Assembly (NCBI GenBank): GCA_964016885.1
Contig: OZ024740.1
Coordinates: 61,876,001-61,940,000 of the forward strand
Direction: 5' to 3'
DNA length: 64,000 bases
Origin: Eledone cirrhosa
Lineage: Eukaryota
The notes beneath the pieces are model-generated. The model saw only the letters and a list, made by a program, of their open reading frames with translations. It was not told the DNA's origin and did no database searches. A program made the position numbers and the translations under genes. Shown piece after piece: positions 1,276 to 63,832 of the stretch; the first letter of the stretch is position 1; each line of letters starts with the position of its first letter.

Positions 1276-2519
1276 AACCAAGAAAGTGAGAAACAAGGGA
1301 AGAAGACGGTGAGAGTAGAGAGATGGCAGACTGCCTTCTAGTGTGTTTTATGAAAGATGGGTGAGAGCAGGGAGAATGTCAAGGTTGAATATGCCTAAAC
1401 TTTCTAATCAGGAGAAAAGAAACCAGGAGAGGGCAGTTTCAATGCCTGTGAGGTAACAGAGTAATCCAATATTTTGTGTGGTTTCTCCCTGGAATACCCT
1501 AAAGTACAGTCCCTAACTATTGGGGAACTTGTGCTTGTTGGCATCATACCCATCCTATAATGCAGTGATTCTGAAATGGAAAGTATTTGGATTTCAGGGG
1601 AGGAATTTTAGCTGAGGAGGGATTGAGGATGAATGTTAGTCAGGAAAGCAATTTAGACTGGGATAGATTAATGTACATTGTGTATATATTAAACGATATA
1701 TCAATATACCCAATTATAAAGGTAATGATGAGTTAACAGTTCACAAAATTGTTGCTTCGGACTTTATCCCATTTGAGACTATACAATTATTGAGATTTGA
1801 AAAGCTTGTTTATGTTAATATGGTGCTTGGGGGAAAAATTACTAGATGACAATTCAAGATGGAGATCACATAAAATGAGGATGATAATGATGACACCTGG
1901 GATCGCAAGGGGAGGAATATGACCTCAGTCTCTGAGAAGCACTGCTGTTATATTGCAAAATTGCTCCAGTTGGTAGCTCTAGCTTTTCTGATTTACATAA
2001 GAAAATGGTTTCACTCTTATTTCAGATTAGTTTAATGATAAAATGTGCATCCAATTGTAAAAATAATTGCTCCAACAAAAAGAAAAAAATACACACACAG
2101 ACACACACACACATATATATATATAATTCACCCATTATAACATGGAAAAATATATGTAAAACAGCAAAATGATGCTGATGATGATGTCAATGCTGCAGCC
2201 AACATCAATAAATAAATGATGAAATATAATGTCTTCATGAGTCAGTCACAGAATCTGATAAAGCTGATAGTATGCATAATGGTTTCAGAATAAACTGAAA
2301 TATTCCATATCAAAGGTGTTATTAAACATATTTCCACCTCAATATCATAATTATGCACAAGCAGAGCTGACTGAGACCAATATAAAAACATCAAGAATAT
2401 TCTATGTTGCAAAATTAATTCATACATTTCATTATGAAAAAAAGAGGAAAAATATATTTCTGAGTTGTATTTGTCTGGCAAGTGACGTGTTCTGAGGCTG
2501 TCTATTGAAACTGAAGCAT

Positions 2520-3200
2520 TAACTTGGATTTAGCTACAGGTACACATAAACCTTATCATAAGCCTAATGGAAAACTAAGATCTATTAATAGAGGGTCCTG
2601 CCACCCCCCCCAGTCCCCAGTTATCTTTAAGAATCTAGTCCCTAACATTAGATGTCAGATCTATAACTTATCTTCTTCCAAGGAGATATTTGATAGGATA
2701 GCCTCATACCATAACAAAGCACTTGAAAATAGCGGCATCAAAGATAAAATTAAGTATATACCCAATACCACCACTCAAAATACATGTAAAAGTAGGAAAA
2801 GTAATATCCTAGTATTGAAGACTAGCCTAGGTGAAAATTTCTTAGAATTATTAGACAAACGTTTCTCCCCTGAACATAGGTATAGGAAAGTTTTCAACAG
2901 GCGGGCAGTGAAACTCAGCTACTCCTGCAGACTTTCTATGAAGACAAAAATAACATACAAAAAAAAGAACCTGATGTAAACCTGAGATGTTCATGCAGGA
3001 ACAAAGATGAATGTCCTTTACACAAAAATGTAATGTTAGGCTGGTCATATACAAAGCTACCATCACACCAGTTATGACCAACCATACAGTGAGCAGAGAA
3101 TGCTATGTGGGTATAATACATGACCGGTTTAAACAATGGCACTATTCATATATCGCATATGCTTACTGAACATCGAGATGTAAACATGTCTTCCATGGCA
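2520..3200 (+). mobile_element. Penelope-like element fragment (RT C-terminus, linker and GIY-YIG start)
   Basis: DL.TG.HKPYHKPN..YIN..SCHPP..NLSSSKEIF..YHNKALENSG, VFNRRAVKLSYSC, then C.CRNKDECPL and YKATI..YVG remnants. Confidence 0.85.
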
Positions 3201-29977: not shown

Positions 29978-32900
29978 TACATACATACATATAGGGTGTC
30001 CCCCAAAAATGTATACATACCTTGATTAGAATGCTTTTGAAGTGTGTATACATTTTTTGGGGATACCCTGTGTGTCATCATCATCATCATCACCGTTTTA
30101 CGTCCGTTCTTCCACGCTAGCATGGGTTAGACGGGTTGTCCTGTTGTGGGCAGTGTCTGGTCGGCTGACCATGCCTTGCTCATACAGGAACTGATCTGGC
30201 TTGATTTCTACAGCTGGATGCCCTTCCTAACACCAACCTCATTTACAGTGAGTGCTGGGTGCTTTTTCGTGGCGCCTACACGTCCACTTTACAGTGTGGG
30301 CTGGGTGCTTTTTTGCCGTGGCACCTCCACGACCACCTTGCGGTGGGGGGGGGGCATATTGTTTATATGCTTCAGCATGTACCCATGGGAGGTCGGGTAC
30401 CCTGTATTACTGCGTGACGCCAGAAGTCACGGTCGTGTGTCATTGACTTTGAGAGGTGTAGTTGGGTAAGGTCGGCTTTTATCACCTCATCCCAAGTCAT
30501 CTTGGGTCTCCCCACTCCGCGGTTTCCATCAACTTCTAGTGCTCTGCACCTTTTTATGCAGCTGTCATCCTTCATACGCATCACATGTCCATACCAGCGT
30601 AACCGCCTCTCCTGCACGCAGCATTTGATTCCTCTTATGCTCAGTCTCTCTCTCAATTCATTTATGCTTTGTCGTTCACGTATATTACTGTTACACATCC
30701 ATCGGAGCATGCAGGCTTCGTTTCTCTCTAATCTACGTAAGTCTTCCACCTTCAGCGCCCAGGTCTCACTACCATGCAACATCGCTGTTCGGATACACGC
30801 ATCATACAGTCTGCCTTTCATTCTGAGGGAGAAGCCTTTTGCAGCTAGCAGTGGTAGTAGTTCCCTAAACTTCTTCCATCCCGTTCTTACCCTAGTTATT
30901 GTACTTTCTGAGCACCCACCTCCGTTGCTAATTCGGTCACCTAGGTAGCAGAAGCTGTCTACTGTTTCTACAGGGCCCTCCCAGAGATTGGTGGTACTTG
31001 TTTCCTGTGGCTGTTTGCTTGCTGTTTCAGCACAGCTGCTGCATGTGAATCCTACATTCTTAATTAAGCTTCCTGAGATCCCGCTACATCTCTTGTGTAC
31101 CCATTGTTTGCATTTGGGGCAAAGAATGGAGTTCCTACCTACACCTTTCCTACATACTGAGCAAGGCCATTTCCCTGAGGGGATCTGGGTTCTGTTTTCT
31201 CGTCTACTTATAAGGACCTTAGTCTTTGTCATGTTGACTTTGAGGCCCTTTCTCTCTAGTCCCTGCTTCCAGGTTTGGAATTTATTCTCTAGTTCTACCA
31301 TAGATTCAGCTATGAGTGCGAGGTCATCAGCATACAGGAGTTCCCATGGGCATCCGGTCTTAAACTCCTCCGTTATTGCCTGCAGGACTATGATGAACAG
31401 GAGAGGGCTAAGAACAGAGCCCTGGTGGACCCCAACCTGTACGCTAAATTCCTCGCTATACTCATTGCTAATCCTAACTTTGCTGACTGCTCCCCTATAC
31501 ATGGCTTGTACCGCTTTCACAAGCCATTCATCTACTCCTAGTTTTCTAAGAGCCCACCAGATTACTGCACGTGGAACTCTGTCAAAGGCTTTCTCAAGGT
31601 CCACAAATGCCAAGTAGAGTGGTTTACTTTTAGCTAGGTACTTTTCCTGTAATTGCCTCACAAGGAAGAGGGCATCAGTGGTGCCTTTCCCTGGTACAAA
31701 CCCAAATTGCATCTCGTCTATATTCACCCGGTCCCTAATCAGCTGTGCTATAACTCTTTCTGTTACTTTCATGACCTGGTCCATCAACTTTATACCTCTA
31801 TAGTTTCCTCTATCTAGTGCATCGCCTTTACCTTTGTAGCAGTTGACAATGATGCTACTGCACCAATCTTTTGGTATGGCCCCCTCTAGTATTACCTGGT
31901 TAACGATACGTGTGGTTATAGTGTGACCTACAGACCCAGATGCCTTCAGCATCTCGGCAGCTATACCCGATGGACCGGTTGCCTTCCCTATCTTCATATC
32001 TCTGATTGCCTTACTTACTACGCTGCCGCTGACTTGTACTGCTGGTCCCTCTATAGGGTCTACGTGGGGTAGGGTCTCTTCTTCCCATGCATTCTCCTCA
32101 TTTAGTAATCTATCATAATGACTCTTCCATGCATCTTTCTTCTCAGCACTTGTGAGGGCAAGCTCACCTTTATCATTCCGGATACACTTCTCTCCAATGA
32201 CATCACAACTATCTCTGACACACTGCCTCGCAATCTTGAATACCTCCTGTTTCTGGTCCTCACGTTGTAAAACATGCTTGAATTTTCTATCCTCTGCTTC
32301 CCTCCTAGCTAAGTATACTTGTCGCCTAGCTTCCCTCTTGGTCTCTATGTAATGTACCCTGCTCCCCCCGTTCTTCCATTCTTTCCATGCCTGTCTCTTG
32401 GCCTTGACTGCTTCATCTACCTTATTGTTCCACCACCAAGTCACTCTCCTCCTGCTTGAGGTCTTACTCCAGCCACAAACCTCATCCGTCGCCTCTAGTA
32501 AGTTATTTTTTAGGAACTCCCAGTTCTCTTCTACGTTAAATGTCTCTATCTGTTCTTCTTTACTGTCGTAGGCGTTGAGTAAAATATCTTTAAATCTGTT
32601 ACTGGTTGAGGGGACTTTCAGCTTCCAGATCTTTCTTCTCCAGGTTGGCCTCTGTTTCAGGGCTCGTCTAGTTCTGACCGTGAGGTCGCTGACAACTAAG
32701 CTATGTTGGGATGTACATTCCTCACTAGGGAAGGCTTTTGTGTTTACGACCGTCCATCTGTCACGTCCTCTGATGAGGATAAAATCTAACTGACTAGAGT
32801 GCTCCCCTGATCTATAGGTGATCAGGTGGTTGTCGGGTTTTTTAAAGTTTGTGTTACATATCGACATATCATTGGCGTCGCAGAATTCTAGAAGTCTGAA

Positions 32901-33512
32901 TCCTTCCTCATTCCTTGTGCCAACTCCATGGCCTCCATGTACTCTATTAAAGCCGTCGCAGTGTTTACCTACGTGTCCGTTAAAATCTCCTGCAATGATT
33001 AGGAAGTCCTTGTCGTCTGTTAGAGCAGTAGTGTGTATTAGGGACTCGTAAAACCTATCCTTAAGTTCGTCTGGCAGCCCCGATTGGGGTGCGTAAGCTG
33101 ATATTATTGTGGTAATTGTCTTATTCAGGACTAGTCTGAGTTTAATGATTCTTGCATTTACCCTGTACACTGAGATTACTTTATCTACCCACTTGTCAGC
33201 TAATAGTATACCTACACCACCCATCCCATCGTCATTTCCCACCCAGAAAAATTTGTAGCACTGGCTTTTTCCTACAAGGACTCTAGCAGACCCTCCTCTC
33301 CATCTAGTCTCTTGCACACAGCATACATCAACTTCCTTTCGCTCTAGCATTTCTACGATTTCTCCTGCTCTTCCTTTCATTGAGCCTACATTGATGGTAC
33401 CAACTCGGAGTTTTGGGCATTTGTCGACACTCGTAAGGGAGGGTCTCTGGGTTGGCGCTTCACGTGGGTGCTTGGTAGCTCGCAGATTCATATTTCATCT
33501 GTGTATATATAC

Positions 33513-61482: not shown

Positions 61483-62770
61483 TAGTAGACATAGCATGAC
61501 TGAATGGTTAAGTTTGCTGAGCAGTCATGTGGTTTCAGGTTCAGTGCCACTGCATGACATCACAGTCTGATGTCTTTTCCTACGGCCTTGGGTTGACTCA
61601 AGCTTAGTGAGTGAAATTAGATAGATGGAAACAGCTTAGAAGCCCATACCATGAACTGTACCTGTAATTCTAAGGGTCATTCTTGTTACACACTGTGTCA
61701 CACTGAATCTCCTTAAAAATTATGTTAAGAGCACACATATATGTAGAATACTCATTCACTTGTTAATTTACTGAGCAGGCTGTTCTGTTGATCAAACATT
61801 TCTGAAACATGCATTTTCATTTTCTAGTGTAACTCTGACCACACTATCCAATGTGTCTCACCTTTTTGATGGTAATTAGGTATAGTTTGAGGGGGATTTG
61901 ACTGTTATTTCTAACTTGTAGAATAACCACATAGAAACTCATTGACTCACGAATGGAATGGGATGGATCTCTGTTGGTTTTGATACTGAGTATTTGCGTT
62001 ATTTGATTAACAAAACGGCCAGCTCATGAAATTGACTTGCAAGTGATTGAGCATTCCATAGATATATGTGTTCTTAACATACTTGTCAGGGAGATTCAGT
62101 GTAATATTACTGGACCTTTAAATTAGAGTTTACAGTCCATTTGAAAGTCTTCCAGTTAATTCTATCTATCCAATTTCACTTATAAGACAGTTTCCTAAAA
62201 TGCCATGCAGTGGAATGGAACTCAAAAGTTTATGATTGTGGAGTGAATCTCTGAATTATTTGGTCAAGATGGATCCCTGACTCGGAACTAATACCATGGA
62301 ATCTCGGTTCACAATTGCCTCACATCATGAACAAATCAGTTCATGAACAATTTTTCCGAACATAAAACATCTCAGTTGACGGTGTCTCAAGTAACGAACA
62401 CACAAGTTGGCAACAACAGTTGATGACAAGCTGCAAGAATCAGGGGGAAAGTGTCACTTGCTGTGTAGTTAGTTATTATGGTTATATTTATTTGTCTTTC
62501 TCACACAGTTTCTTTCTAGCTATATTTCTCTCTCAACATTTCATATGGGCAAAATAGTTTTGGTTTACAAACATTTTGGATGACAAACAGCTTTAAGTTT
62601 GTGAACCAAGGTATTATACTGACATGCTCATGTATTATCACAGCACCTTTCATTGCATCTTGGATTTGTTTTGTGTATTTACAGTGATTCCAATCAGATT
62701 AATGGTTCTCAAAAATGGTGAAAGGAACTTATCAAAGGCTTTACCAGTTGTTGGACCAAATGTTACTAAT
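7593..62770 (+). CDS. DCDC1: Multi-exon host gene (internal part), doublecortin domain-containing protein 1-like (DCX-like and ricin-B-like repeats)
   Basis: Ten AG/GT-bounded exons (102, 175, 100, 124, 108, 192, 170, 127, 88, 86 nt; total 1272 nt = 424 codons) join with matching phases and no stop. The peptides [59 protein letters not shown] closely resemble vertebrate DCDC1 as I recall it. No database search was run. Confidence 0.85.
7860..8250 (+). mobile_element. Old RTE 3' fragment
   Basis: Degenerate RNE.SMLHWMC..LREKLGIRGI and tail catgcaagcatggaaaaa..gatgatgat. Confidence 0.75.
8830..9085. repeat. Minisatellite, about 26-nt degenerate unit (gagttcagaacaataaagcaggaatt)
   Basis: About 8-9 diverged tandem copies visible. 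Confidence 0.75.
10140..10610. mobile_element. piggyBac-like MITE with a second copy nested in opposite orientation
   Basis: TTAA-CCCTTT..AAAGGG-TTAA termini. Family also at about 11100-11412, 22059-22290, 26205-26860 (split), 27061-27300, 51541-51787, 53607-53870 and 62884-63103. Confidence 0.65.
10762..10936 (+). CDS. DCDC1: DCDC1-like exon ([11 protein letters not shown]...[15 protein letters not shown])
   Basis: Pyrimidine tract + cag acceptor, gtaagt donor, phase 0-1; IWLSFGE..IDP resembles the end of a DCX domain. Confidence 0.85.
11880..12440 (-). mobile_element. CRE-clade non-LTR retrotransposon 3' fragment (restriction-like endonuclease)
   Basis: [20 protein letters not shown](D)[36 protein letters not shown]. 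Confidence 0.8.
12600..13070 (+). mobile_element. Non-coding dispersed repeat resembling an RTE-type 5' UTR; related copy at about 18210-18465
   Basis: ctaggagaaggaaaactctgatataaa.cctgc motif and shared downstream sequence in both copies. Confidence 0.5.
13220..13488. repeat. 20-nt minisatellite (gtatacatgtaggaatgtat)n; shorter block at 12499-12602
   Basis: About 13 tandem units. Confidence 0.95.
13560..13785. repeat. (CAC)n-type low-complexity tract; others at 14790-14960, 51070-51260 and 52235-52560
   Basis: Direct inspection. Confidence 0.9.
16200..17770 (-). mobile_element. R4/Dong-like RLE non-LTR retrotransposon, 5'-truncated and degenerate
   Basis: [22 protein letters not shown] (CCHC), [17 protein letters not shown]; ends in a (TACA)n tract. 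Confidence 0.85.
17805..18105 (+). mobile_element. SINE family B (tRNA-derived head plus CORE-like ccttgagcaagacact segment)
   Basis: A-box tggctt.gtggtta and B-box ggtt.gattcc. Copies at about 29380-29497(-), 34005-34270, 35505-35610, 35962-36100, 37294-37440 and 43497-43610. Confidence 0.75.
18470..21116 (-). mobile_element. 5'-truncated RTE LINE (690-aa ORF remnant 19009-21081, YADD mutated to YTDD)
   Basis: RT and PHD finger, 3' UTR with internal tandem duplications, (GAT)n tail. Confidence 0.97.
22457..22556 (+). CDS. DCDC1: DCDC1-like exon ([33 protein letters not shown])
   Basis: tag acceptor, gtaagt donor, phase 1-2; exactly bridges the phases of the neighbouring exons. Confidence 0.75.
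22595..23005 (+). repeat. RTE 3'-UTR fragment with a 48-nt unit amplified 5-6 times
   Basis: acactgtaaag.gg.catgtaggtgtcac..aaaaagcacccagtcc at 22595, 22643, 22691, 22739, about 22788 and about 22836; then taggaagggcatc..cccatgctagcatgg..(GAT)n. Confidence 0.9.
23688..24003. mobile_element. hAT-type MITE
   Basis: 8-bp TSD atctagac (23680-87 and 24004-11), CAGG-starting terminus, internal ggcccg/gggcc motifs. Confidence 0.75.
24082..24205 (+). CDS. DCDC1: DCDC1-like exon ([16 protein letters not shown]...TWHFLQHK)
   Basis: tttctag acceptor, gtttgt donor, phase 2-0, open frame. Confidence 0.78.
24480..24860 (+). mobile_element. Old RTE 3' fragment
   Basis: Degenerate RTE C-terminus and tail. 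Confidence 0.7.
27636..27743 (+). CDS. DCDC1: DCDC1-like exon ([36 protein letters not shown])
   Basis: ttcag acceptor, gtaagt donor, phase 0-0; QxW ricin-like motif. Confidence 0.85.
29992..30070. mobile_element. 79-bp Tc1/mariner-type MITE
   Basis: TIRs agggtgtcccccaaaaatgtataca / tgtatacattttttggggataccctg, sitting in a TA-rich tract. Confidence 0.75.
30076..33500 (-). mobile_element. RTE LINE with an intact ORF
   Basis: Single uninterrupted ORF, about 295-nt 3' UTR and (GAT)n tail; almost no 5' UTR before a TA/TG microsatellite. Confidence 0.97.
30372..33491 (-). CDS. RTE ORF, 1039 aa: APE endonuclease + reverse transcriptase + internal PHD finger
   Basis: GTINV, VQET, AYAP, GDFNGH, LDFIL, SQH (APE); DLEKAFD, QGSVLSP, YADD, YLG (RT); C4HC3 finger. 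Confidence 0.96.
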   Translation of the reverse strand: MNLRATKHPREAPTQRPSLTSVDKCPKLRVGTINVGSMKGRAGEIVEMLERKEVDVCCVQETRWRGGSARVLVGKSQCYKFFWVGNDDGMGGVGILLADKWVDKVISVYRVNARIIKLRLVLNKTITTIISAYAPQSGLPDELKDRFYESLIHTTALTDDKDFLIIAGDFNGHVGKHCDGFNRVHGGHGVGTRNEEGFRLLEFCDANDMSICNTNFKKPDNHLITYRSGEHSSQLDFILIRGRDRWTVVNTKAFPSEECTSQHSLVVSDLTVRTRRALKQRPTWRRKIWKLKVPSTSNRFKDILLNAYDSKEEQIETFNVEENWEFLKNNLLEATDEVCGWSKTSSRRRVTWWWNNKVDEAVKAKRQAWKEWKNGGSRVHYIETKREARRQVYLARREAEDRKFKHVLQREDQKQEVFKIARQCVRDSCDVIGEKCIRNDKGELALTSAEKKDAWKSHYDRLLNEENAWEEETLPHVDPIEGPAVQVSGSVVSKAIRDMKIGKATGPSGIAAEMLKASGSVGHTITTRIVNQVILEGAIPKDWCSSIIVNCYKGKGDALDRGNYRGIKLMDQVMKVTERVIAQLIRDRVNIDEMQFGFVPGKGTTDALFLVRQLQEKYLAKSKPLYLAFVDLEKAFDRVPRAVIWWALRKLGVDEWLVKAVQAMYRGAVSKVRISNEYSEEFSVQVGVHQGSVLSPLLFIIVLQAITEEFKTGCPWELLYADDLALIAESMVELENKFQTWKQGLERKGLKVNMTKTKVLISRRENRTQIPSGKWPCSVCRKGVGRNSILCPKCKQWVHKRCSGISGSLIKNVGFTCSSCAETASKQPQETSTTNLWEGPVETVDSFCYLGDRISNGGGCSESTITRVRTGWKKFRELLPLLAAKGFSLRMKGRLYDACIRTAMLHGSETWALKVEDLRRLERNEACMLRWMCNSNIRERQSINELRERLSIRGIKCCVQERRLRWYGHVMRMKDDSCIKRCRALEVDGNRGVGRPKMTWDEVIKADLTQLHLSKSMTHDRDFWRHAVIQGTRPPMGTC
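36140..36342 (+). mobile_element. Solo RTE 3' UTR next to a SINE B head
   Basis: Nearly the same sequence as the 3' UTR of the 30076-33500 element. Confidence 0.8.
37637..39110. mobile_element. Probable PLE remnant with about 135-bp inverted terminal repeats (37637-37772 / 38926-39060), each carrying a hammerhead motif
   Basis: Arms essentially identical; CTGAGGA..GAAATATATATA core. Confidence 0.65.
38953..39018 (+). ncRNA. Minimal type I hammerhead ribozyme motif (mirror copy on - strand at about 37679-37744)
   Basis: Stem I tattttgt/atgaaata, CTGAGGA, stem II catatt/aatatg, GAAA, palindromic TATATA, ATA cleavage triplet. Confidence 0.6.
40730..41600 (-). mobile_element. Degenerate Penelope-like 3' fragment (GIY-YIG region and 3' end)
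   Basis: Minus-strand remnants FKA.V, FKN.F.NH.TTFKH, T.KLASQV.KLK and CNLCID.KLFIL..NKRS. Confidence 0.75.
41609..42160. repeat. About 40-nt minisatellite (gatatagtcaacattgtcagtactagaatactggactggcag), about 13-14 copies
   Basis: Direct tandem repetition. Confidence 0.93.
44570..45016. repeat. (TCAC)n / 16-nt tcactcactcacacgg tract
   Basis: Direct inspection. Confidence 0.9.
45120..45311 (+). CDS. DCDC1: DCDC1-like exon, ricin-B-like repeat ([16 protein letters not shown]...[15 protein letters not shown])
   Basis: cccacag acceptor, gtaaat donor, phase 0-0; LCL and QxW..G.I beta-trefoil motifs. Confidence 0.88.
45947..47164 (+). mobile_element. Full-length mariner transposon with a pseudogenised transposase
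   Basis: About 29-bp TIRs tgag.gttggctgaaaagttcataggctg; [27 protein letters not shown](P)HLLT and (Y)SDL.PSDYHLF motifs with stops and frameshifts. Confidence 0.93.
48108..48277 (+). CDS. DCDC1: DCDC1-like exon ([12 protein letters not shown]...LPRKLGGLQ)
   Basis: accag acceptor, gtaggc donor, phase 0-2. Confidence 0.82.
48411..48600 (-). mobile_element. Young SINE A copy with a long TSD
   Basis: gtgacaattagaaataatt at 48399-48417 and 48616-48634. Confidence 0.88.
48718..50445. repeat. 1.7-kb compound (CAC)n satellite with higher-order units
   Basis: Recurring cagcaccaaaccacaaccaccatcac and caacagcaacaactatc spacers. Confidence 0.95.
50494..50620 (+). CDS. DCDC1: DCDC1-like exon ([43 protein letters not shown])
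   Basis: ttacag acceptor, gtgaga donor, phase 2-0; the most recognisable DCDC1 block. Confidence 0.9.
51907..52096 (+). mobile_element. Young SINE A copy
   Basis: Reverse complement of 48411-48600 with about 4 differences by eye. Confidence 0.88.
54150..54908 (+). mobile_element. Degenerate RTE 3' fragment (same subfamily as 6548-7437)
   Basis: [29 protein letters not shown] and (GAT)n tail. Confidence 0.9.
55540..55627 (+). CDS. DCDC1: DCDC1-like exon ([29 protein letters not shown])
   Basis: T-tract + aag acceptor, gtaagt donor, phase 0-1. Confidence 0.87.
57363..57686. repeat. About 320-bp near-perfect palindrome (head-to-head PLE-type repeat with hammerhead motifs)
   Basis: Centre ggttcaattccagtattggaattgaacc; arms differ at only a few positions. 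Confidence 0.9.
58090..58648 (-). mobile_element. Helitron-like non-autonomous fragment
   Basis: Minus strand starts A|TCTATACTAAAAA followed by ..ggaccaaacggcaccaaatttgcac..; 3' boundary unclear. Confidence 0.5.
60800..61386 (+). mobile_element. Degenerate RTE 3' fragment
   Basis: [25 protein letters not shown] and (GAT)n tail. Confidence 0.88.
62292..62621. mobile_element. Tigger/pogo-like MITE, degenerate
   Basis: Subterminal ctcggttcacaa / ttgtgaaccaagg inverted pair with repeated tgaacaa motifs. Confidence 0.45.
62685..62770 (+). CDS. DCDC1: DCDC1-like exon ([29 protein letters not shown])
   Basis: ttacag acceptor, gtaaga donor, phase 1-0; VLKNG resembles the start of a DCX-like domain. 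Confidence 0.85.
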
Positions 62771-63726
62771 GTAAGATATAGATTGGGAAACCACATCATT
62801 AATTAATTAAAAACAAAAAGAAAGGAAAACAATTTTTTTTTTAAATTGATTTGTTTCTTCTCCCTTTCTAAAATGTTTATAAATTAACCCTTTCAAAACC
62901 ATTCTACCTGAACTTGTTTTTGGCTCTGTGATAAGACAGTCCATTTTAAAGTGTCCCTATTTAAAAATAAAACCTTCTGTCAAAATTTTAGGAAGTTATG
63001 TTCTTGACACCAACTTAAAAACTTTCCAAATTCTTGATAATTTTCAAAATAAGTTGAAACACATTCAACCATCTCATCAGGAATATGGTCACGAAAGGGT
63101 TAAAACAAAAATGTAAACGATGTGTAAAACAGAAAAGAAAAAAAAAATGTTGAAGATGTTGCTTTCTTTCAATATTTATTCATTAATTTTATTTATTTAT
63201 TTTTTTATTTATTTTTTTATTTATTTTTACTCTTTTAATCTTTTACTGGTCTCAGTCATTAGACTGCAACCATGCTGGAGCACAACCTTTATTCAGTCTA
63301 TCAATTTTTTCAAGTCAGGTGCATATTTTATTGATTTCTTTTTTATTGAGCTGCTAAATTACAGGAAATAAACACACACACACACAGTTTGGGTGCAAAC
63401 GAAAGCAAAAAGTAATCATATCATAATATGAAAGGTGAGAATATTTATATCAACAGTTCAACTTATTTTTGCATTACCAAATAATTTTGTGTCCATAAAT
63501 ATGGCTTGCTCTTTCTGTGACTGATTCAACTACATTGCCAGCTCCCACAGAATTGATAGTTCTCTGCATGACAGCACAACAGGGTCAATGTGTATATCAT
63601 TATGGTATCTTTGCTGTATGTATGTGTGTGTGTGTGGGGGGGGGGGGGGGGCAATGGACATAGCAAAAGTATTATGGGTAATGTATTTGTTGTACGCTGA
63701 TAGTTCTGATATATATAAGTTTATCA

Positions 63727-63777
63727 GGCTTCCTGATGATTTCTCCCGAATGAAACAGTTCTAGTCCTGTAGAAGCC
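63727..63777 (+). ncRNA. Type I hammerhead ribozyme motif
   Basis: Stem I GGCTTC/GAAGCC, CTGATGA, stem II TTC-tccc-GAA (T.T at the base), GAAA, stem III ACAG/CTGT, GTA cleavage triplet. Confidence 0.7.
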
Positions 63778-63832
63778 ATTTCTATATTAAATATATATAG
63801 CGTGGAAGATAGACATTAAACAATGATGATTA

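What the first reader, a model, noticed from the sequence alone, without database searches (positions are those of the whole stretch)
63727..63777. Stand-alone intronic hammerhead ribozyme in the sense strand of the DCDC1-like pre-mRNA
Seen: GGCTTC-CTGATGA-tTTCtcccGAAt-GAAA-CAG(ttctagtc)CTG-TA-GAAGCC, a complete type I core with a perfect 6-bp stem I and a 4-bp stem III. Predicted cleavage is after 63771. It lies about 1 kb downstream of exon 62685-62770 with no obvious PLE ORF nearby. Known: hammerheads occur in PLEs, in retrozymes and as domesticated intronic ribozymes. Inference: it could mark a small retrozyme-like element or cleave the host intron. Caveat: the 10.1-11.1 pair is T.T instead of the usual R-Y, so it may be slow or dead.
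Basis: partly seen in the sequence, partly recalled or inferred. Interest (0 to 1): 0.75.

Follow-up and report, generated by a model that had tools for sequence, protein, structure and literature searches.

The report
Penelope-type repeat stub with hammerhead
The self-cutting-RNA motif in this intron is real, but it is one of thousands of near-identical copies of a small non-coding repeat, likely spread by Penelope-type jumping genes, and at this spot it is predicted to misfold, so it probably does not cut the host gene's RNA.

Summary
The type I hammerhead at 63727-63777 is real (0 hits in 200 window shuffles) and lies sense in a ~8.3-kb DCDC1-like intron. It is not stand-alone: an exact 26-base core occurs 1,996 times in this genome. 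Sampled copies sit in TA runs, two thirds as head-to-head pairs with one short and one tailed arm, the published Penelope-like (PLE) insertion layout. The window copy is a ~77-base stub: 9 bases of inverted arm, hammerhead, 16 bases. The U.U at 10.1/11.1 is the family norm (132 of 140 arms), a known slow-but-active variant, not decay. Core and stems stay fixed while loop II varies, so source elements likely kept the fold. Here the junction forms an 8-bp hairpin that is predicted to bury the core (stem I probability 0.02 or less, against 0.97 alone). Extra: most copies begin at the first base of stem I, 29-30 bases after a TATA box, and span the cut site, so the template is likely an uncut RNA that starts at the ribozyme. 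No coding parent found; no RNA data; cleavage untested. Earlier scan notes report this layout in this genome. Ordinary.

The parts
62684..62770 (+). Upstream exon of the DCDC1-like host gene (context)
   Evidence: tblastn of P0001/P0002, 76-83% identity; next exon ~71086, past the window
63709..63716 (.). Left (TA)n remnant of the target site
   Evidence: sequence
63717..63725 (-). 9-base stub of the inverted long arm: reverse complement of the family's tailed 3' end (+129)
   Evidence: matches the 3' end of full copies L170, L089; same stub starts the inverted arm in many loci
63721..63739 (+). Junction hairpin (8 bp, 63721-63728 with 63732-63739) predicted to sequester stem I 5' strand and the CUGAUGA core in the host pre-mRNA
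   Evidence: ViennaRNA MFE and pair probabilities
63727..63777 (+). Type I hammerhead motif; first base = family 5'-end hot spot and inferred transcription start of the source RNA
63740..63751 (+). Stem II: U10.1.U11.1 mismatch, 3 bp, loop UCCC (loop is the variable part of the family)
63755..63771 (+). Stem III (4 bp, 8-nt loop) and GUA triplet; predicted cut after 63771
   Evidence: sequence
63778..63793 (+). Rest of the short arm, ending at the family's tail-less 3' end (+60 to +66, merging into TA)
63794..63799 (.). Right (TA)n remnant of the target site
   Evidence: sequence

Best explanation
This is a ~77-base stub of a high-copy non-coding repeat with the head-to-head, TA-embedded, one-tailed layout of Penelope-like elements, likely pasted here by a Penelope-type enzyme from an uncut RNA and predicted to be inactive in the host intron. 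Inferred steps: (1) source copies carry a TATA promoter and start a capped RNA at the first base of stem I; (2) a PLE protein supplied in trans nicks both strands of a TA run and primes reverse transcription at two sites of that RNA (+60/66 and +129); (3) the two cDNAs are joined head to head through microhomology, here leaving only 9 bases of the long arm; (4) the new junction pairs with the core, so this intronic copy would not fold as a ribozyme. The hammerhead is likely a slow but once-selected ribozyme of the source elements, not a host device.
For: Copy number: 1,996 exact core matches, 2,745 exact matches of a tail pattern, controls 0; top BLAST hits 92-100% on many chromosomes. Layout in 87 core-selected loci taken in order along C1: 65 start at -6..0, 21 carry the promoter; 3' ends cluster at 64-68 (33) and 125-129 (20); 59 have an inverted arm, 53 long+short, 6 short+short, 0 long+long. 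In 70 tail-selected loci: 46 inverted partners, all short; 63 of 70 run 5' across the cut site, 2 start at it. TATA lies 29-30 bases before stem I in 51 of 60 promoter-bearing arms. Literature: inverted pLTR, one-sided tail, TATA in pLTR, mobilisation in trans (PMC3846280, passages); two RT start sites bounding the tail, both strands primed, uncut RNA the main substrate (PMC11167929, parts 1-2 of 4); dispersed single hammerheads as PLE stubs (PMC4209133, parts 1-2 of 4); TA bias (PMC8557442, passages and section 11). Misfold: stem I probability 0.97 alone, 0.02 or less with 11-150 native upstream bases. Selection on sources: 132 of 140 arms T.T, loop II 13-41% divergent against 0-11% in stem II, GAAA, stem III and loop III; in a second organism (run X4) 7 of 51 positions vary at >=15%, 5 of them N7 and loop II.
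Against: No coding parent was found: 0 matches for a frame-open version of the upstream stub, longest open frame 168 aa among 150 of 218 candidates scored, no significant tblastx or blastn match of the unit to 30 GIY-YIG loci or 19 Hydra-type loci beyond simple repeats and separate inserts. So the PLE link rests on architecture. The transcription start is inferred from genomic ends only; the 5' hot spot could also be an RT stop, and the extra 5' G is ambiguous in most junctions. Absence of long+long pairs could reflect loss of longer palindromes. Folding is a thermodynamic prediction; co-transcriptional or protein-aided folding is not modelled. Even alone, the active stem II register is weak (0.1) against an alternative that uses the core GAA. 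Samples are mostly the first matches on one chromosome and the two sets share a few loci.
Confidence: 0.85

Rival explanations
1. A domesticated or at least active intronic ribozyme that cuts the DCDC1-like pre-mRNA and tunes its output.
For: Sense orientation in an intron; intact core, 97% identical to a full family copy; U.U variants do cleave (PMC3088659 section 8; axolotl HHR_Amex2 22% in 1 h, PMC7229834 section 15).
Against: One of thousands of copies; sense is a coin toss; junction hairpin predicted to bury the core; 74 of 87 sampled copies are likewise predicted misfolded, stem I probability <0.05; high identity means youth, not conservation.
Confidence: 0.04
2. A solo copy of a tandem non-LTR retrozyme that spreads through self-cut, circular RNA of about 380-450 bases.
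For: A 446-base non-coding unit exists; L068 has two same-strand hammerheads 382 bases apart with the body between; retrozymes are proposed PLE derivatives (bioRxiv 10.64898/2026.07.22.740005, part 1 of 5); a 77-base direct repeat of the motif shows in 58 reads of run X21.
Against: Only 2 of 223 loci with an arm show hammerhead-promoter-hammerhead; copy ends do not fall at the cut site (2 of 70); ends fit linear RNA from stem I to two priming sites.
Confidence: 0.08
3. A fold-back DNA transposon (MITE-like) in which the hammerhead is a passenger.
For: Inverted arms and TA flanks.
Against: Arms are unequal, 5'-truncated at variable points and centred on a promoter-defined position; a third of copies have no second arm.
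Confidence: 0.03

Closest known systems
Insertion units of endonuclease-bearing Penelope-like elements (PMC3846280, PMC8557442, PMC11167929)
   Same: Hammerhead near the 3' end, adjacent head-to-head inverted 5'-truncated copy, tail on one arm only, two 3' ends, TA/AT-rich targets, TATA within the repeat, uncut RNA as template.
   Different: No RT/GIY-YIG ORF in any copy seen; tail about 63-70 bases rather than 30-40; most copies start exactly at stem I; parent clade unknown.
PLE-associated minimal hammerheads (PMC4209133)
   Same: Type I, dispersed single motifs in thousands, weakly palindromic loop III.
   Different: Has a real 4-bp stem III with an 8-nt loop, short stem II and 6-bp stem I; U.U in place of the conserved G10.1-C11.1.
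Non-LTR retrozymes, notably axolotl HHR_Amex2 (PMC7229834)
   Same: Non-coding, animal type I hammerhead, U.U at the base of stem II, unit of a few hundred bases.
   Different: Dispersed inverted stubs rather than tandem arrays; ends not at the cut site; no circRNA evidence.
Conserved intronic hammerheads of amniotes (HH9/HH10; names recalled, paper seen only as a reference in PMC3088659)
   Same: Type I motif in the sense strand of a large intron.
   Different: Those are single-copy and conserved; this is a young copy of a high-copy repeat, predicted misfolded.

Membership tests
Type I hammerhead ribozyme | Core C3 U4 G5 A6 N7 G8 A9, G12 A13 A14, A15.1-U16.1, H17 | tested here: met
Type I hammerhead ribozyme | Three stems with stem I open | tested here: met
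   6+3+4 bp; fold energy -8.3 against MFE -9.3 kcal/mol for the motif alone
Type I hammerhead ribozyme | Paired 10.1-11.1 (usually G-C) | tested here: not met
   U.U, family-wide; a published natural, active variant
Type I hammerhead ribozyme | Rfam hammerhead model match | tested here: not met
   no hammerhead row at E<=10
Type I hammerhead ribozyme | Loop 1-loop 2 tertiary contact | not tested
   loop II is variable and pyrimidine-rich; no contact recognised by eye
Type I hammerhead ribozyme | Self-cleavage | not testable with these tools
   needs an in vitro assay
Penelope-like element insertion (non-autonomous) | Head-to-head inverted 5'-truncated copy | tested here: met
   59 of 87 and 46 of 70 loci; 9-base stub in the window
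Penelope-like element insertion (non-autonomous) | Tail on one end only (two RT start sites) | tested here: met
   53 long+short, 6 short+short, 0 long+long; 46 of 46 partners short
Penelope-like element insertion (non-autonomous) | Insertion in TA microsatellite | tested here: met
   seen by eye in printed flanks; not counted against a control
Penelope-like element insertion (non-autonomous) | Descent from the pLTR of an element with RT and GIY-YIG ORF | tested here: inconclusive
   no parent found; a short upstream reading has the E-x3-I-x4-P-x2-N spacing seen at the ends of this genome's GIY-YIG domains but no significant match
Autonomous PLE | RT + GIY-YIG ORF | tested here: not met
Non-LTR retrozyme | Tandem repeats of 150-450 bases each with a hammerhead | tested here: not met
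   2 of 223 loci
Non-LTR retrozyme | Expression as circular RNA | not testable with these tools
   no RNA holder listed
Domesticated intronic hammerhead | Single copy, conserved at the orthologous intron | tested here: not met
   multi-copy; orthologous site could not be read

The most novel reading that the evidence does not exclude
In this family the promoter starts the RNA exactly on the first base of hammerhead stem I, so a cut would remove the capped 45-base leader: the ribozyme would be a slow, U.U-tuned self-decapping switch that sorts transcripts into uncut RNAs, which the PLE enzyme copies twice from two start sites, and cut RNAs, which are almost never inserted. That would give PLE hammerheads a role other than releasing units from tandem precursors.
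Probability: 0.3. Interest if true: 0.5.

Novelty: new member of a known kind. Interest (0 to 1): 0.2.

Why it matters
As flagged (a lone intronic ribozyme acting on DCDC1) it does not hold up. What is left is a well-sampled, very short PLE-type parasite that bears on an open question, what PLE hammerheads are for: the genomic ends point to a transcription start at stem I, uncut templates and paired use of two priming sites, matching in vitro work on a lizard PLE. A 135-base RNA with a natural U.U variant is an easy substrate for testing this. It also warns that intronic hammerheads in such genomes are mostly repeat stubs.

Tried and rejected
Rfam searches: no hammerhead row. Parent search: Pfam accession recalled for a PLE domain was not in the library; frame-open pattern 0 hits; 23-aa stub peptide, 150 of 218 candidates scored, no long frame; GIY-YIG family, 30 of 150 listed loci examined, no link; Hydra-type family with 714-719-aa frames has RWK, DKT and CxCX5C as in PMC8557442 but shares no sequence with the unit, so it is only one possible helper. 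Pfam on three host exons and the Hydra ORF: nothing over cut-off. Expression: no RNA holder listed; runs X6, X10, X17 laid nothing; no evidence either way. Empty-site allele: no read or contig of X1, X4, X5, X21 spans the site; untested. Obligate dimer through loop III: dimer -12.8 kcal/mol, but 126 of 1000 loop shuffles do as well; not supported. Cap-derived extra G: promoter copies have C before stem I in 41 of 43, promoter-less full arms often have G, but the inverted arm can supply it; by hand about 8 unambiguous G against 7 other letters; suggestive only. T.T as decay of this copy: rejected. In print: searches 'hammerhead+octopus+Penelope' and 'Penelope-like+hammerhead+transcription start site+TATA box+pLTR' listed no paper describing this family or a start at stem I; supplements of PMC8557442 (family consensus files) and of the bioRxiv paper were not read and may hold it.

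Full report
Observation. The motif is at 63727-63777 as described. A descriptor needing the full core and three stems finds it once in the window and never in 200 dinucleotide shuffles. Rfam does not detect it. The host gene is DCDC1-like: a 64-aa exon found P0001 and P0002 (84% and 78% identity, names by their source), and tblastn puts collinear exons on the + strand, the last in the window ending near 62770 and the next near 71086, so the motif is sense in an intron of about 8.3 kb.

It is a repeat. BLAST of 63700-63810 gave 355 candidates, 40 scored, 92-100% identical on many chromosomes. An exact 26-base core pattern with N at 10.1 and 11.1 has 1,021+975 matches, control 0; of the 100 listed, 93 are T.T. 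A pattern from the tail has 2,745 matches. These count arms, not loci. Sampled copies are 89-92% identical to a reference copy, so exact patterns catch a minority and the family likely exceeds ten thousand arms (my rough arithmetic, no call). The family is also abundant in a run of a second organism (X4).

Anatomy. Numbering from C3 as 0 against the natural copy L070, the longest unit is about 446 bases: a TG-rich start at a TA run, a non-coding body, a TATA box, the hammerhead (-6 to +44), a first 3' end at +60/66 and a tailed end at +129, then TA. I took 90 loci of the first 100 core matches on C1 and dropped 3 (second arms of the same locus, a duplicate): of 87, 65 start at -6..0, 1 at -12..-7, 21 keep the promoter; 59 have an inverted arm joined head to head, 53 long+short, 6 short+short, none long+long. 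To avoid selecting on the core I took 70 of the first 100 listed tail matches: 63 run 5' across the cut site, 2 start at it, 5 start beyond it, 30 start at -6..0; all 46 inverted partners are short. The two sets share a few loci. The window copy is TA, 9 bases that are the reverse complement of the +129 end, one A, the hammerhead, 16 bases to the short end, TA: the same layout with a nearly deleted long arm.

What kind. This layout is published for Penelope-like elements: adjacent inverted truncated copy, tail on one end, TATA in the pLTR, mobilisation in trans (PMC3846280, passages; PMC8557442, passages and section 11). In vitro a lizard PLE nicks and extends both strands, starts at two internal sites that bound the tail, and uses mainly uncut RNA (PMC11167929, parts 1-2 of 4). 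Most PLE hammerheads occur as dispersed single motifs (PMC4209133, parts 1-2 of 4). I found no coding parent, although the genome holds several PLE lineages with long open frames. A short reading upstream has the spacing seen at the end of GIY-YIG domains here, but no significant match. The family is therefore filed as a non-autonomous PLE-type repeat on architecture; the helper is unknown. Tandem retrozyme is not met: 2 of 223 loci with an arm (some loci overlap) show hammerhead-promoter-hammerhead.

The U.U pair. In 140 arms not chosen on the core, 132 have T.T; loop II differs in 13-41%, while stem II, GAAA, stem III and loop III differ in 0-11% (5' positions are inflated by truncation, and 1.6 differs in 31%). 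In run X4, 7 of 51 hammerhead positions vary at 15% or more: N7, four loop II bases and two stem I bases; five of seven in the free positions gives p about 9e-6, or 0.008 if loop III is counted free (post hoc, contigs not copies, laying needs 80% likeness). So source elements likely kept the fold with U.U. Natural U10.1.U11.1 hammerheads are known and it is the best-tolerated mismatch (PMC3088659, passages and section 8); axolotl HHR_Amex2 has it and cut 22% in an hour as a monomer (PMC7229834, passages and section 15). Cleavage here is untested.

This copy in the intron. Alone the motif forms stem I with probability 0.97, though stem II prefers a register that uses the core. With 11 or more native upstream bases, 63721-63728 pairs with 63732-63739 and stem I falls to 0.02 or less at every flank length tried. 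The same holds for 74 of 87 sampled copies with 30-base flanks; 9 keep stem I above 0.5. Cutting of the host pre-mRNA is therefore unlikely. Orthologous conservation and empty alleles could not be read.

Start site. The TATA box lies 29-30 bases before the first base of stem I in 51 of 60 promoter-bearing arms, and that base is the 5' hot spot of promoter-less copies. An extra G before it, where promoter copies have C (41 of 43), is frequent but mostly ambiguous. I infer a capped RNA that begins at the ribozyme; a cut would drop the 45-base capped leader, and cut RNA is rarely the template. No RNA run was available. Two paper searches listed nothing that states this; supplements were not read.

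Earlier notes of this scan already describe hammerhead-bearing fold-back PLE stubs with long/short pairing in this genome and others; a sequence look-up found no note on this stretch. I had seen the pairing and counted it. Verdict: real motif, ordinary origin, new member of a known kind; interest 0.2.

Noticed in passing
window 2515-2976 (+): Broken piece of a Hydra-type PLE ORF; related family has 41,981 candidates and many 714-719-aa open frames with RWK, DKT and CxCX5C motifs; one such frame lies about 94 kb before the window start.
   Followed up: partly
window 30375-33494 (-): 1,040-aa open frame that reads like a LINE endonuclease-RT (by eye); more broken copies at 5-7 kb and 19-21 kb.
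   Followed up: no
window ~37700 and ~38960: The same ~80-base stretch appears on opposite strands, suggesting another fold-back insert about 1.2 kb across.
   Followed up: no
L171-L200: A second, longer subfamily with a duplicated upstream block, loop II UCAC/UCAU and the same U.U pair; 1,081 candidates.
   Followed up: partly
run X21 laid on 63730-63774; runs X1, X5, X21 on 63762-63794: Reads show a 77-base direct repeat that holds the hammerhead (58 reads, 12 starts) and a 72-base repeat of its 3' half (depth 3,825 in X1): possible small tandem or satellite derivatives.
   Followed up: no
G000:C1200:237495-238124: Four matches of the upstream stub at 188-base spacing: a tandem array of part of the unit.
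   Followed up: no
L068:1150-1723: Inverted long arm, hammerhead, TA run, full body, second hammerhead 382 bases on: the only clear two-hammerhead unit seen, a candidate source of a cut-to-cut monomer.
   Followed up: partly
L031, L101, L194, L196, L278: Minimal hammerheads of other families with G10.1-C11.1 sit beside these inserts in the same TA tracts.
   Followed up: no
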